From: the human T2T-CHM13v2.0 reference genome, Homo sapiens
NCBI RefSeq assembly: GCF_009914755.1
Contig: NC_060925.1
Direction: 5' to 3' (one strand)
Length of the DNA: 64,000 nucleotides
A program made the translations under genes and the position numbers. Below the pieces are notes generated by a model. That model did no database searches. It worked only from the letters and a program-made list of their open reading frames with translations, and was not told the DNA's origin. Shown here piece after piece: positions 951 through 47,094 of this stretch (its first letter is position 1; each line of letters opens with the position of its first letter).

Positions 951-1399
951 GATCTTGATTCATAAATAAGGCTGGCATCCTGCTCCATATCTGTTAATCA
1001 TAGCTCCTAGACTCTGTGGTCTGCTCTCCCCAGGGCTTGCTGCCTGCTCCCAAGATCCTTGGTCACTGGTATGGGTCTGGCTTTAATCAGAAAAGCCCTC
1101 CTTAGGTCCAAGATATTACAACCACCTGATGATAAGTCCCTTCACTGCCCAGAGATTCTAGCTGTGGAGCCTCTAGTAGCCTTAATTTTTTGGATACAAG
1201 GAGTGAAGCAGAACAGATCCATGTTTGTTCTGCTCTCAGGCTTTATAATTCATATACTTGGCTTAAAATGGCCACAGAGATAGTCACTGCAAAATTTCAA
1301 TATTGCAAAATTTGGGCCATTTTCAAGTAATGCCAGGCCCCAGTTTATCCCCCAATTTCAGGGGTGGTATTTATGAGCCACCTCTCAGCCAATCGGCAC

Positions 1400-40682: not shown

Positions 40683-43600
40683 ATCATCTAATTGTATAAT
40701 GAGGAAACCAAGGAGCAAGAGGAGAAGGAACCTGCTTAAGCTTTCATCATGTACTGGCCACCAGAGTCGCAAATGTTGGCCAACATCAGGAGGCTGGTTT
40801 GAGGAAAAAATACTTCCGTAGCTTTTGAAAGTATTAGTCGACTTCAAAATGTGCAAACCCTTTGACCCAGTAATTCTACTGTTAGGAAATTAGCTTAATG
40901 GTTAATTAGCTGAAATGATGAAGATTTAGCTATAAGGAAGTTTATCAAAGCACATTAAGAAAGACAATAGTTACATAAACTGAAATTTACTTTATGTCAG
41001 ACATTGTCCTAGGTGCTTTGCATACATTCTCATTAAATCCTCAAAACAACCTTTCATCTAAGATGAAAAAACTGATACTCAGGTTAATTAATTTTCTCAA
41101 GTACACACAGTTAATAATGTTAAGAACTTGGGTTGGAATCCACATCTATTTGATTCTAAAACATCTCTTATACCATACCTTCTGTATAAAGTCAGAAAGT
41201 CATCTTCAGGGGCCCCAAATGGAAATGCTAATGATTGGGAATTGGTTAAATACATTATGTGCATTAATACAATAAAATACAATAAGCCATTATATAAGCA
41301 CTCTCCTCCAGGGTCACTTGTCACATGTCATGTTGTAGGTTAATATCTGATGATGTAGTATATAGTAAAAAAAAAAGGTTGATTATACATGTAACTTAGT
41401 GTGTGACATGTAGATACATTTACTGGTTAGAGTGGGTAGATAAATAAATATGAAAACATGAATCTCCATTATTTCTGGATAGGATTACAGGCAAATTTTA
41501 AGTTTGATTTTTAATATTTATAATTTGCTACAATGAACAAAGGATGAATTTAATGAGAAGAAAAAAAGAATTTATATTTCAAAACAAAGAGGTTTCCAGT
41601 ACGTAGGGAGACAGGATTTCCTAAAAAGATATTTCTAAGACAGCATCTTTAGTTTGAATTTATGCTTCATCATATTAGCCTTTACCTCTCCAGACAAAGT
41701 TCATCCACCTATTTGGTAAGTCAAATTGGCAGTGTTTCACTAGTTAAAAGGGTTAATTTCCTTGGACTTAGCAGACGTACCTGGGCAGTTAACGCTGCTA
41801 AGGCACCTGAGTATCAGAGGGATTTTAGGGCATGTTCCCTCTGTTCTGTGGTTAGAGGAATCTAATAATATCCCACCATTTCTTTTTCTTCTTCCTTCTC
41901 CTGAAAATGCAGCAGGTAAAGTTCCTGATTGAATTCCATCTTGATTTCATTAAATATTCATAAAGGCCAATTAGAAGAGGAGAGAAAGAGCCCCCTTCTA
42001 TCATCCTGTCAGAGGTCGGCTTGTTGACCGTCAGGCATGGGCCAGCCAGTGGTCAACATGGCCATGATCTTCCTGCACTTTCCTCTGGGGTCACTTCTCA
42101 CCATCCCAGCAAGGGACCCAGGACTGGCAGGAAATGAGAGGCAGAGGCCTGGCAAGGAGAGACAGCTTATAATTCTGACAGCAAGGTGCTTAGCATGTAG
42201 AATGCAAAATGCAAATGCTGGGAAACATCCTCAATCATTTCTGGAATGGAAATCTTTCCCTAATGAGCGATGACGATGGCAGAGAGCTGATTGCACTGAA
42301 GAAAAACTGCTTAAAATTCATAATCAATCAAGCGAGTTGATTTTAGTCTTTTGTAACCAAGCTATCCCATTCTAGCTTCCTTTATTGGCCAACTGGAGCT
42401 TATCACTCCCTACCTTGTTCCCTTCATCTAGCTCAGATGGTAGGTCCCACTGGAGACCCTGAAAGAGACTCGAGCATATCAGGAAGGTAGACTGGTAGGA
42501 CTCAGAAGAGCGCATCCATTCTGATCATTTAATTTTACAGTTGGGGTGTGGAGGATAAGAGAAGGCAAAGGACTTGACAATGTTACATAGGCAGTGGCAG
42601 TGCAACTAGCTTTCTGTCTGCAAGCCATTGAAGAATGCTATGAAAGAAAATGTACCAAAAGTCTAGAGTTCTACATTTGGGACCGGTTTTACTATGTGAT
42701 ACTGGAACAAAGCTGTGTAGTATTGGAACTAAGTGTTTATGCTATTTGCAGGTTGCCATTCAAAAATGGCGATGGCAATAATAATGCCTTTCTCCCTACT
42801 TCACAGGGTTCTTGTGACACTCACATAATAAAAAAGGATATAAAAGTGCTTTGAAAATGGCAAAGCACCCTGCTATTATTAAACATCTCCTTTCATTTTC
42901 CAGGCCCCTAGGTACTCCCCCTCTAAATCATATTCCACACAGGTATCTGCAAGTTCTTTTTAAAACTCCGATCTCACCTTGCCATTTCCCTGTTTAACTC
43001 CTCTCACATTGTCCTTTGGACAAAGTCTAAGCTCTAAGTCTGGCATTGAGGAACCTTCACCATTTTGGGAATTTGTCTTCTCTTCTCGAGCTTCAGTTTC
43101 CTGTTCATAAAACAAGAAAACTAATACCTACCTGAGAAGGCTGCTGTGATTAGAATTCACATCTACAAAGTGATCAGAATGGCTTCTGGCACATCATAGC
43201 TGGCCTATGTAGCTTAATTATAATCTTACTAAGTTTCACAACAATTCTGGAAGATGGCTACAGAAGAAGCAACTTCCACTCTGATTTTACAAGACACGAG
43301 AAGCCCAGAGAGGTGAAGACATTTAATAATGGCTGCACAGCCAGAACTCAGACCTGAGATTTCACTCTTGGGCTTTTGGCTCATGGAGGCAGGGGATGCA
43401 ATGGGGAGTAGGTAGGAGGAGAAGCAGGTGTGGTGCTACCTCAGGCTGCCAGCATGAAATGATTCTTTTCTGAGATACCTCTGCCTAGTCCAAAAGGTAG
43501 AGAATATAATTTTCCTTTCTTTCTTTTTTTTTTACTAGTACAAATAAAAGGATTTATTTTGAAGCAAACTAATACTTGAAAAAAAGCAGCTTTAATTAGA

Positions 43601-43774
43601 CAATGATACAAAAGTACGTATTCTTTTTGGGACTAGTTCTGAATGAGACTTTTGGGGTCTTCAAGGGTTTCACAGGCTAAGTGCACTTGTTATTTCAGAT
43701 TTCTAATTTGCCTTTTAAATGGCAGATTTATCCCTAGTACAACTTTTACGCTTATTAACATTGATGCCATTTGT

Positions 43775-45547
<1,773 letters not shown>

Positions 45548-45619
45548 ATGCCCTTTGTGTTTGATCCACAAAAAGGGAGAGACATCCAGAGCTGAAGAGT
45601 TTTCCCTGAGAATTTTGTC

Positions 45620-45989
45620 AAGAGCGTCGCTCTCCAGGTACACGCCCCCCGTCAAAGGCGGCTCTAAGGTCCTCTCACGAGGGAGCGCCCGTGGTACCTC
45701 CTTACTCTCAGCTATCTGTCTCTCCCCGACCCCAGAGTGATTGCGCTGCTTCCTCCAGAGGGCGGGAACCTTGGACGTGGCGGGGCTGGGTCAGCCACGT
45801 CGCTGGGCCTGAGGCGCTCGGCTCAGCCTCCCTGCAGGCTGGCCTTCCGCACCGTCGTGATGCCCCCGACAGGCCCCACACCTGCCCAGGTAGAACGGCG
45901 CCAGCCCGAGTGACGCCTGGCGTGTAGCCGTGGGCAGGCGGCTCAGTGCCGCGGGGCGGGCGGGCGCCACACCTGTGCGGGCGAGGGCC
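45620..45989. promoter_or_regulatory. Intragenic CpG island with GC boxes, a CTCF-like motif (45752-45765) and paired GACGTGGC elements
   Basis: About 35 CpGs in ~370 bp by hand count, in an otherwise CpG-depleted window; ggggcgggcgggcg at ~45953-45966. Confidence 0.85.
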
Positions 45990-47094
45990 TATAATTTTAT
46001 TTTCTAACATGATCACAAGGCCATAGGTTCTAGGCCTGTCCAACTTCTCTTGCCTCATTTCAAACTAGTGGAAAATGAAATGAAGCAAAGGATGGTTATC
46101 TTATGCTAAACAGTTGCTTGAATAAAAAAGGAAAAATGAAATTCTCAAACAATAAGTTAATAGTTTTTTTTTTTTTTCTCAGCTTCTCCTCTAAGCCGCA
46201 TTTCCAGGCAGCAAAGAGAAATTGAGTGGAAATGCATAAATTGTTGCAAACAAATGTCTCATTCAAGAGAGATTTTCTCAAGATACCAGGCTCCATATGA
46301 GGTAGCTGGGTGAGTCTTTGGATGGGAGTAGAGAAACCTGGATCTGGCCTCACTTGGCTTAATCTTTTCTTTCCTGTTCTTCTTATGCATCAACTCAGGC
46401 CTGCTACAAGTCCTAGATCCACACTGATATGAAACAAAATGACGAGCATTCCAAAAATTCAACTTTATTCTTTCATTCATTTAACAAATATTTATTGAGC
46501 ATCTACTATGTCCCAAGCTCTTTGCTAGGTGGAATACAAAGTTAAGAAAACAGACACAGATTCTGCCTTCATCTAGCATTTACAGTTTATTATGGGAAGA
46601 AAGACTTTTTAAAATAATCAAATATTCATGTATATGATTTCACCCTTTAATAAGTATCATGAAGAAATAAATATTGGGAGCTAGGAAATATTTAACAGGA
46701 ATATCTGATATAATTAGGGGCTGGGGTGGGGTCAGAAAAGATTTCCATGAGGAGGAAACATTTGAGCTGAGGGGCATTTGGAGTTATGAAGGCAAAGGGA
46801 TGTGAGTGGGGTGGGGTTGGAGTGCTCCAGTCAGAGAGGACAGCTTGTATTAAGGCTCTGAGGTAAAAGGGAGCAATGGCATATTCAAGGAATTGAGAGA
46901 CCAGAGTGTCTGGAGTATAGAGATGGGGACCAAGAAAGATGAGGCTAGAGAGGAGAGAAGGGTGCAGACCCCACACAGCCTTCTAGGCCAGGGAATATAA
47001 GCTGGGAAACAAATTATTCTAAGCATGAGAGAAGCCATTAAAGAATTTTTAAAAGAGGATGGGCATGATCAGATTTGTATTGCAAAAAATCCAC

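What the first reader, a model, noticed from the sequence alone, without database searches (positions are those of the whole stretch)
45548..45989. Imported island resembles the RAB33B promoter/5' region; candidate retrocopy of its divergent (antisense) transcript
Seen: plus-strand gggcgggaaccttggacgtggcggggctgggtcag...gctggccttccgc...ggcgccagcccgagtgacgcctggcgtgt...gccacacctgtgcgggc, with GC content rising toward 45989. Recall, unverified: this matches my memory of the sequence just upstream of the RAB33B start codon on 4q31. Inference: the poly(A) puts the retrocopied RNA on the minus strand, so the donor would be the upstream-antisense RNA of that promoter rather than the mRNA. That is an unusual donor class, because it copies the mRNA's upstream promoter elements, which ordinary retrocopies leave behind.
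Basis: inference. Interest (0 to 1): 0.7.

Follow-up and report, generated by a model that had tools for sequence, protein, structure and literature searches.

The report
Retrocopy of RAB33B's antisense lncRNA
This GC-rich patch in an AGBL4 intron is the front end of a 2.5-kb reverse-transcribed copy of a spliced non-coding RNA that starts just upstream of the RAB33B gene on chromosome 4 and runs away from it; it is a genomic fossil with no shown function.

Summary
Window 45548-45989 matches only one other locus in this genome, on contig C4, in two pieces 39.7 kb apart. The first piece lies 163-511 bp upstream of an ATG whose exon matches Rab-33B. The pieces are joined exactly where a GT...AG intron, read on the minus strand, was removed. 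So the donor was a spliced RNA antisense to RAB33B.

The element is larger than reported. The adjoining L1 fragment and its embedded Alu are also contiguous at the C4 source (94.5% over 2,110 columns), so they were part of the donor's second exon. The whole retrocopy is 43514-45989 on the minus strand. It ends in a non-templated A-rich tail 19 nt after an AATAAA. It is flanked by a 9-bp target-site duplication, TATAATTTT, at a TTTT/AT site.

This is a standard L1-mediated processed retrocopy, roughly 15-30 million years old, of a divergent lncRNA, probably an isoform of RAB33B-AS1.

The copied 365 bp still has CpG-island composition. Promoter activity at the new site is not shown.

The parts
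43505..43513 (.). Target-site duplication, left copy (TATAATTTT)
   Evidence: Identical 9-mer at 45990-45998. The chance of this, allowing +-3 offsets at each end, is about 1e-3.
43514..43533 (-). Poly(A) tail of the retrocopy. It reads CCTTTCTTTCTTTTTTTTTT on the plus strand, which is an A-rich run with a few G on the minus strand.
   Evidence: It is not templated at the source: C4 continues with unrelated, non-A-rich sequence at this point.
43534..43790 (-). Copy of the 3' unique end of donor exon 2. It contains an AATAAA 19 nt before the tail.
   Evidence: Only two places in the genome match: this one and C4:142731582-142731830 at 94%.
43791..44553 (-). Copy of the 3' portion of the old L1 that lies inside donor exon 2 (left boundary approximate)
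   Evidence: The translation of 44091-44309 (minus) matches LINE-1 ORF2 protein residues 1156-1221 at E 8e-24. The stretch is contiguous with the C4 source.
44554..44853 (-). Copy of the Alu that had inserted into that L1 at the source, in sense orientation on the minus strand
   Evidence: Rfam Metazoa_SRP matches on the minus strand at 44570-44716 and 44738-44852. The same Alu sits at the same place in L003 and within the 94.5% alignment.
44854..45547 (-). Copy of the 5' portion of the same L1 fragment (ORF2 region)
   Evidence: The translation of 45045-45269 (minus) matches LINE-1 ORF2 protein residues 942-1007 at E 3e-16. The first look gave 13,667 candidates in the genome. The C4 source copy is 94% identical, against 82% or less for the other 38 scored copies.
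45548..45624 (-). Copy of the first 77 nt of donor exon 2 (non-L1)
   Evidence: 97% identity to C4:142733600-142733675. MAFFT gives 76 of 76 aligned bases identical plus one 2-base indel. At the source it is preceded by a pyrimidine tract and AG.
45625..45988 (-). Copy of donor exon 1, which is the plus-strand image of RAB33B upstream DNA from -511 to -163. It is CpG-rich.
   Evidence: 87% by BLAST, and 316 of 348 aligned bases by MAFFT, to C4:142773336-142773684. At the source it is followed by GTAAGG on the minus strand. The first 365 bases of the retrocopy in RNA sense (window 45988-45624: this part plus one base of exon 2) hold 35 CpG, with GC 0.71 and o/e 0.77.
45989..45989 (-). One extra base (G on the minus strand) between the 5' TSD and the first templated base. 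It may derive from the RNA cap.
   Evidence: The source has C on the minus strand at this position. Untemplated G at this junction has been described and attributed to cap reverse transcription (passages of PMC3287187). A plain substitution is equally possible.
45990..45998 (.). Target-site duplication, right copy (TATAATTTT)

Best explanation
Window 43514-45989 (minus strand) is a single L1-mediated processed retrocopy, a non-coding retropseudogene. Its donor was a capped, spliced, polyadenylated two-exon lncRNA transcribed divergently from the RAB33B promoter on contig C4.

The donor RNA started 163 bp upstream of the RAB33B ATG and ran away from the gene. It spliced a 349-nt first exon across a 39,661-bp intron to a roughly 2.1-kb terminal exon. 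That exon consists of 77 nt of unique sequence, an old L1 ORF2/3' fragment with a sense Alu inside it, and about 250 nt of unique sequence ending at an AATAAA site.

L1 endonuclease and reverse transcriptase acted in trans (inferred). They nicked a TTTT/AT site in an AGBL4 intron, primed on the poly(A) tail and copied the RNA to its 5' end. This left a 9-bp target-site duplication.

The insertion dates to roughly 15-30 million years ago (inferred from divergence, using recalled rates). The insert most likely has no function. It is a fossil that records an old isoform of the RAB33B antisense RNA. It also deposited a 365-bp CpG-island-like piece of the RAB33B upstream region in an AT-rich intron.
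For: Shown by calls:
- The 442-bp island matches only C4:142773336-142773684 (E 3e-125) and C4:142733600-142733675 (E 1e-27), both in the same orientation.
- The join in the window (exon 1 last base 45625, exon 2 first base 45624) coincides with a GT (GTAAGG) after exon 1 and a pyrimidine tract plus AG before exon 2. Both signals are read on the C4 minus strand.
- Window 43533-45625 aligns as one block to contiguous C4 sequence, 94.5% over 2,110 columns, L1 and Alu included.
- The L1 part is 94% identical to the C4 copy, against 82% or less for the other 38 scored L1 copies.
- Homology stops at an A-rich tail that is absent from the source, 19 nt after an AATAAA.
- Identical TATAATTTT 9-mers flank the insert, and the pre-insertion site reads TTTT/AT.
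- At the 5' end, homology stops at L002 position 1849, with unrelated flank beyond it.
- The neighbouring plus-strand exon at L002 2012-2260 is RAB33B.
- Published RAB33B-AS1 qPCR primers map to L002 1403-1421 (minus) and 1234-1253 (plus), next to exon 1.
- K2P distance at non-CpG sites of exon 2 is 0.036 +- 0.004.
Against: - Nothing contradicts the retrocopy model.
- The RAB33B-AS1 amplicon in print lies in what is the intron of the retrocopied isoform. The annotated gene and the fossil isoform therefore differ, and I could not see any annotation of C4.
- qPCR primers do not prove strand.
- At the source, the hexamer is now AATTAA rather than AATAAA. Either the source site has since mutated, or the retrocopy gained the hexamer later.
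- The age rests on recalled substitution rates and has no outgroup. Exon 1 diverges about twice as fast as exon 2 at non-CpG sites (0.068 +- 0.015 against 0.036 +- 0.004).
- That L1 proteins did the copying is inferred from the hallmarks, not shown.
Confidence: 0.95

Rival explanations
1. Template-switch chimera. L1 reverse transcriptase began on an L1 RNA and jumped to an unrelated cellular RNA, as in U6-L1 chimeric retrocopies. This would fuse the GC-rich RNA 5' part to a 5'-truncated L1.
For: The layout on the minus strand looks exactly like such a chimera when the window is read alone: non-L1 sequence, then a 5'-truncated L1, then poly(A). The L1 edge is sharp at about 45547.
Against: The same 77-nt, L1, Alu, L1 and unique-tail arrangement is contiguous at the C4 source. 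The L1 here is 94% identical to that particular copy, against 82% or less to other copies. The tail follows about 250 nt of unique non-L1 sequence rather than the L1 3' end.
Confidence: 0.01
2. DNA-level duplication or transposition of C4 sequence to chr1, with no RNA intermediate.
For: Long, high-identity paralogy between two chromosomes.
Against: 39,661 bp are missing exactly between GT and AG. There is a non-templated A-rich tail after an AATAAA, a 9-bp TSD and a TTTT/AT target.
Confidence: 0.01
3. Same origin, but with a present-day function. The imported piece of the RAB33B bidirectional promoter has stayed an unmethylated orphan CpG island. It acts as a promoter or enhancer inside AGBL4, or its sense-oriented AATAAA affects AGBL4 transcripts.
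For: - The first 365 bases of the retrocopy (copied exon 1 plus one base) keep 35 CpG, GC 0.71 and o/e 0.77. These are the same values as the native source.
- Of the CpGs still present at the source, 24 of 34 are kept in the copy's exon 1. Only 5 of 12 are kept in the copy's exon 2 (p = 0.09). Against exon 2 of both lineages pooled, 10 of 29, the difference gives p = 0.006.
- The insert is in the same orientation as AGBL4 (hub annotation).
Against: - The RefSeq table for the window lists no gene, transcript or functional element here (hub annotation).
- The within-copy contrast is not significant (p = 0.09).
- The pooled control mixes lineages and sequence contexts.
- From recall, CpG decay is known to be slower in GC-rich DNA even when it is methylated.
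- The 162 bp next to the RAB33B ATG, where the sense start site may lie, were not copied.
- No expression or methylation data could be consulted.
Confidence: 0.1

Closest known systems
L1-mediated processed pseudogenes (retrocopies) of mRNAs
   Same: Intron loss at the exact exon junction, a poly(A) tail at the transcript's own 3' end, a short target-site duplication, a TTTT/A-type target and a different chromosome.
   Different: The donor is a non-coding, promoter-divergent antisense RNA. No RAB33B mRNA retrocopy was found with the 5'UTR and exon 1 probe: of 2 matches, one is the probe itself and one is a 70-nt, 81% match on C11. Most of the copied RNA is itself repeat-derived (L1 and Alu).
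'Non-coding retropseudogene / non-coding retrogene' category of lncRNA evolution
   Same: [quoted passage not shown] Carelli et al. state that their screen could not retrieve noncoding retrogenes (passage of PMC4772013).
   Different: This is a concrete, fully delimited example from a bidirectional CpG-island promoter. Whether it is the functional or the non-functional kind was not tested.
Retrocopies that inherit a parental promoter (Carelli et al. 2016, PMC4772013)
   Same: Parental promoter-region DNA travels inside the retrocopied RNA. That paper puts such inheritance at about 3% of expressed retrocopies, through transcripts that start upstream of an alternative promoter (passages).
   Different: Here the promoter-region DNA is carried by the antisense partner. 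It therefore arrives as the upstream flank of the sense gene, inverted relative to the retrocopied RNA. The sense gene body is absent, and no expression from it is shown.
L1 chimeric retrocopies by template switching, and L1 5' transduction (named from recall, no call)
   Same: Superficially the same order: foreign sequence, 5'-truncated L1, poly(A).
   Different: The foreign part and the L1 are contiguous in the donor exon at C4. The L1 is a passenger within the RNA, not the mobilised element.
PROMPTs / upstream antisense RNAs (properties from recall)
   Same: The RNA starts next to a CpG-island promoter and runs away from the gene. Its inferred start is 163 bp upstream of the RAB33B ATG.
   Different: The donor was spliced across 39.7 kb and polyadenylated at a hexamer site, giving a mature RNA of about 2.45 kb. 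That makes it a stable divergent lncRNA, not a short unspliced exosome target.

Membership tests
L1-mediated processed retrocopy | Introns of the source are precisely absent | tested here: met
   39,661 bp between a GT and an AG on the C4 minus strand are missing at window 45625/45624.
L1-mediated processed retrocopy | A 3' poly(A) tail not encoded at the source, placed after a polyadenylation signal | tested here: met
   A 20-nt A-rich tail at 43514-43533, 19 nt after an AATAAA. The source continues with unrelated sequence. The source hexamer today reads AATTAA.
L1-mediated processed retrocopy | Flanking target-site duplication and a T-rich/A endonuclease target | tested here: met
   TATAATTTT at 43505-43513 and 45990-45998. 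The pre-insertion site reads TTTT/AT. The consensus TTTT/AA is recalled.
L1-mediated processed retrocopy | Homology ends at the transcript's 5' end, with no DNA from upstream of the donor's own start site | tested here: met
   Homology stops at L002 position 1849. The next window bases are one extra G (minus strand) and then the TSD.
Template-switch L1 chimera | The two joined parts come from separate RNAs and are not contiguous in any genomic source | tested here: not met
   They are contiguous at C4.
RAB33B-AS1 (the named lncRNA) | Transcript antisense to RAB33B from the shared promoter, overlapping the annotated exons | tested here: inconclusive
   The published qPCR primers map to L002 1234-1253 and 1403-1421. 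That is 80-267 nt past the donor site of the fossil isoform, in its intron. No annotation of C4 was available, so it is open whether the fossil isoform, or its exon 2, is annotated.
CpG island (composition criteria, recalled: at least 200 bp, GC at least 0.5, o/e at least 0.6) | Length, GC fraction and CpG observed/expected | tested here: met
   365 bp, GC 0.707, o/e 0.769, 35 CpG.
CpG island (functional sense) | Unmethylated in the germline, with H3K4me3 or bound by CXXC proteins | not testable with these tools
   The evidence is only indirect. CpG retention is 24 of 34 in the copy's exon 1, against 5 of 12 in the same copy's exon 2 (p = 0.09).
Retrocopy with an inherited active promoter | A transcription start site used at the new locus lies within the inherited sequence | not testable with these tools
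   No expression data were available. The hub annotation lists no transcript or element at 43514-45989.
PROMPT / short upstream antisense RNA | Short, unspliced, unstable | tested here: not met
   The donor was spliced and about 2.45 kb long, ending at a hexamer site. Its stability cannot be tested here.

The most novel reading that the evidence does not exclude
Retroposition of a promoter-divergent antisense lncRNA moved a working piece of a bidirectional CpG-island promoter to a new chromosome. In this reading, the imported 365 bp have stayed hypomethylated for about 20 million years on their own sequence alone. They act as an orphan CpG-island promoter or enhancer in the AGBL4 intron. If so, antisense-RNA retrocopies would be a general route for dispersing the upstream promoter DNA that mRNA retrocopies leave behind.
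Probability: 0.08. Interest if true: 0.6.

Novelty: new member of a known kind. Interest (0 to 1): 0.3.

Why it matters
Mechanistically this is a textbook L1-driven retrocopy, so it changes no concept. It has three modest uses.

1. It is a dated fossil of a lncRNA isoform. It fixes the start site, one splice junction and the poly(A) site of a RAB33B antisense transcript as they were roughly 15-30 million years ago. It also shows that the hexamer differs at the source today.

2. It is a clean example of a class that retrocopy screens built on protein-coding parents cannot retrieve (PMC4772013 says so of noncoding retrogenes). Repeat masking would also break it into 'L1 + Alu + unexplained GC island'.

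3. It is a natural experiment. A 365-bp fragment of a CpG-island promoter was dropped into AT-rich intronic DNA and still shows CpG-island composition. Public methylome and CAGE data could test whether it is unmethylated.

Tried and rejected
- Rfam scan of 44300-46400 at E up to 1 gave 4 matches, all inside the Alu (SRP-like and two Alu-derived miRNA families). None falls in the GC-rich part, so it is not a copy of a known structured RNA.
- Pfam scan of five translated L1 pieces gave 0 families. The L1 identity was obtained from solved LINE-1 ORF2 protein chains and from copy number.
- The template-switch chimera and L1 5' transduction models were considered first from the layout. They were rejected once L003 showed the same L1 and Alu joined to exon 2.
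- I looked for a RAB33B mRNA retrocopy, whose 5' end would have marked the sense start site, and found none.
- I looked for other copies of the 501 bases just past the donor site and found only the probe itself.
- Literature phrase searches for lncRNA retrocopies found 0 papers and 2 off-topic papers.
- 'Retrocopy' combined with 'upstream antisense' found 94 papers holding at least 3 of 4 terms. None of the 12 listed contains 'upstream antisense'. These are phrase searches of an open-access library, not proof of absence.
- A small ATG frame of 25 codons at 45585-45508 (minus) was dismissed. The source differs by a 2-base indel right after the ATG.

Full report
**1. The observation**

GC content climbs from 0.50 to 0.72 across 45500-45999, then drops to 0.34 immediately after 45999.

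Left of 45548 the sequence is the reverse complement of an L1 ORF2 region. A probe spanning the edge was matched by 38 L1 copies elsewhere in the genome. In 36 of them the match starts at probe positions 92-99 (window 45542-45549). In the other 2 it starts at position 79 (window 45562).

**2. Where the island comes from**

The window's own genome (3.1 Gb, 24 contigs) could be searched. The 442 bases, given as the minus strand, have three matches:
- the window itself;
- C4:142773336-142773684, at 87% identity, covering query positions 2-365, E 3e-125;
- C4:142733600-142733675, at 97% identity, covering query positions 365-442, E 1e-27.

The two C4 matches are in the same orientation and 39.7 kb apart.

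The first C4 piece is L002 positions 1501-1849. An ATG-initiated frame starts at L002 2012 on the opposite (plus) strand. Its first 83 residues find Rab-33B as the five best solved-structure sequences (E 4e-39 to 4e-30). The next best is Rab-43 at 7e-14.

So the island is the image of RAB33B upstream DNA from -511 to -163 relative to the ATG. The band 4q31 itself was not checked by any tool.

**3. It was copied through a spliced antisense RNA**

In the window the two C4 pieces abut: exon 1 ends at base 45625 and exon 2 begins at base 45624. At C4, read on the minus strand, exon 1 is followed by GTAAGG. Exon 2 is preceded by a pyrimidine tract and AG. The alignment across the join is exact.

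One technical note: my joined source carried one base too many, the G of the acceptor AG. It appears as a one-column gap.

The missing stretch is C4:142733675-142773335, which is 39,661 bp. A canonical intron removed on the minus strand fixes both the RNA intermediate and its direction, which is antisense to RAB33B.

**4. The element is 2.5 kb, and the L1 and Alu belong to it**

From the window alone, the layout suggested a template-switch chimera: GC-rich part, then 5'-truncated L1, then A-rich end, all on the minus strand. That model is wrong, for four reasons.
- L003 shows the same 77 nt, the same L1 fragment and the same Alu at the same position, all contiguous at C4.
- With the adjoining 4 kb added, window 43533-45625 aligns in one block to C4:142731579-142733675 at 94.5% over 2,110 columns.
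- The L1 stretch 44900-45547 is 94% identical to that C4 copy, against 82% or less for the other 38 scored copies. The first look gave 13,667 candidates.
- The last 257 bases (43534-43790) are single-copy apart from the C4 source, which is 94% identical.

L1 identity rests on two translated pieces. They match LINE-1 ORF2 protein residues 942-1007 (E 3e-16) and 1156-1221 (E 8e-24). Pfam gave nothing for five such pieces. Alu identity rests on minus-strand SRP-like Rfam matches.

The donor's terminal exon was therefore mostly repeat-derived, and the repeats were passengers in the RNA.

**5. Ends of the insert**

At the 3' end (minus strand), homology stops after …GTACTAGT. The window then has an A-rich tail (43514-43533), while C4 continues with unrelated sequence. 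An AATAAA lies 19 nt upstream of the tail in the window. The source reads AATTAA there today.

At the 5' end, homology stops at window 45988, which is L002 1849. One extra base follows: G on the minus strand, where the source has C. [quoted passage not shown] A substitution is an equally simple reading.

The insert is flanked by identical TATAATTTT 9-mers at 43505-43513 and 45990-45998. The chance of this, allowing offsets at either end, is about 1e-3. The restored target reads TTTT/AT, close to the L1 endonuclease preference TTTT/AA (recalled).

All defining features of an L1-mediated processed retrocopy are met.

**6. The donor gene**

A lncRNA called RAB33B-AS1 occurs in 2 papers of the library. 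In both I saw only the matching passages.
- One gives qPCR primers (PMC11652561). They map uniquely among my loci to L002 1403-1421 (minus) and 1234-1253 (plus). This is 80-267 nt beyond the donor site, inside the intron of the fossil isoform.
- The other only lists the gene in an expression table (PMC9868882).

This supports an antisense transcript at this promoter. It also indicates that the assayed form reads through the donor that the retrocopied isoform used. Primers do not prove strand, and I could see no annotation for C4.

No retrocopy of the RAB33B mRNA 5' part exists in this genome. Of the 2 matches, one is the probe itself and one is a 70-nt, 81% match on C11.

**7. Age**

| Region | Aligned bases identical | Gap columns |
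|---|---|---|
| Exon 1 | 316 of 348 | 16 |
| Exon 2 | 1,988 of 2,079 | 30 |

These counts are from the MAFFT alignment.

| Sites | K2P distance |
|---|---|
| Exon 2, non-CpG sites (2,030 sites) | 0.036 +- 0.004 |
| Exon 1, non-CpG sites (266 sites) | 0.068 +- 0.015 |
| All sites | 0.053 |

With recalled primate rates of 0.8-1.2e-9 per site per year, the age is 15-22 million years from exon 2 non-CpG sites and 22-33 million years from all sites. I report roughly 15-30 million years.

There is no outgroup, and I have no explanation for the higher rate in exon 1. The embedded Alu looks like AluY by recalled diagnostic bases. That would fit this age, but I give it little weight.

**8. The imported promoter fragment**

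The first 365 bases of the retrocopy in RNA sense (the copied exon 1 plus one base of exon 2) have 35 CpG, GC 0.707 and o/e 0.769. The 349-bp source has 35 CpG, GC 0.722 and o/e 0.769.

CpG retention:

| Comparison | Exon 1 | Exon 2 | Fisher p |
|---|---|---|---|
| CpGs present at the source that are kept in the copy | 24 of 34 | 5 of 12 | 0.09 |
| CpGs present in the copy that are kept at the source | 24 of 34 | 5 of 17 | 0.007 |

Against exon 2 of both lineages pooled (10 of 29), the copy's exon 1 retention gives p = 0.006.

This suggests that the copied fragment has decayed as slowly as the native island. It remains only a suggestion, for three reasons:
- the within-copy test is not significant;
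- the pooled control mixes lineages and contexts;
- GC-rich DNA loses CpG more slowly in any case (recalled).

The copy lacks the 162 bp between the antisense start and the RAB33B ATG, where the sense start site may lie. The hub's RefSeq table shows no transcript or element at this place. I therefore take the insert to be non-functional (about 0.9). An active orphan CpG island stays as the novel reading (about 0.08-0.1).

**9. Comparison with what is known**

Carelli et al. report that about 3% of expressed retrocopies inherited a parental promoter, through transcripts starting upstream of an alternative promoter. They state that their analysis could not retrieve noncoding retrogenes (passages of PMC4772013).

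Farre et al. report that Alus embedded in 3'UTRs are over-represented in parents of processed pseudogenes, especially lowly expressed ones (abstract of PMC5199112). The donor here carried a sense Alu in its terminal exon. That fits their idea but does not test it.

Phrase searches for lncRNA retrocopies, and for retrocopies of upstream antisense RNAs, found nothing on point. This is a limited open-access search.

**10. Verdict**

- Observation: confirmed.
- Interpretation: supported, with three corrections. The retrocopy is 2,476 bp. The donor was a spliced two-exon lncRNA carrying an L1 and an Alu. Promoter function is not shown.
- Kind: a new, cleanly delimited member of a known kind, not a new mechanism.
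- Interest: 0.3.

Noticed in passing
window 43558-43563 (minus strand), against C4 near 142731600: The polyadenylation hexamer is AATAAA in the retrocopy but AATTAA at the source today. The source site may have been lost after the retroposition. The direction of change is unknown without an outgroup.
   Followed up: partly
window 45625-45988 against 43534-45624: Non-CpG divergence from the source is about twice as high in the copied exon 1 (K2P 0.068 +- 0.015) as in exon 2 (0.036 +- 0.004). I have no explanation for this.
   Followed up: no
window about 45798-45811: A 14-base stretch is present in the retrocopy but absent from the C4 source. It lies between similar short repeats (CAGCGCC / CAGCGAC). 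It is either a slippage deletion at the source or a duplication in the copy.
   Followed up: no
window 44545-44560 and 44853-44866: The embedded Alu has its own target-site duplication within the L1 (TGCCCAC followed by a T run). It is present at the same position in L003, so it inserted at C4 before the retroposition.
   Followed up: partly
window 45585-45508 (minus strand): A 25-codon ATG frame spans the junction of exon 2 unique sequence and L1. The source has a 2-base indel directly after the ATG, so the frame is not shared.
   Followed up: yes
G000:C11:107935702-107935771: A 70-nt, 81% match to the RAB33B first coding exon, presumably an exon of a paralogous Rab gene.
   Followed up: no
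L002 1234-1421 (C4:142773069-142773256): The published RAB33B-AS1 qPCR amplicon lies in the intron of the fossil isoform. So present-day RAB33B-AS1, as assayed, reads through the donor site that the retrocopied RNA used.
   Followed up: partly
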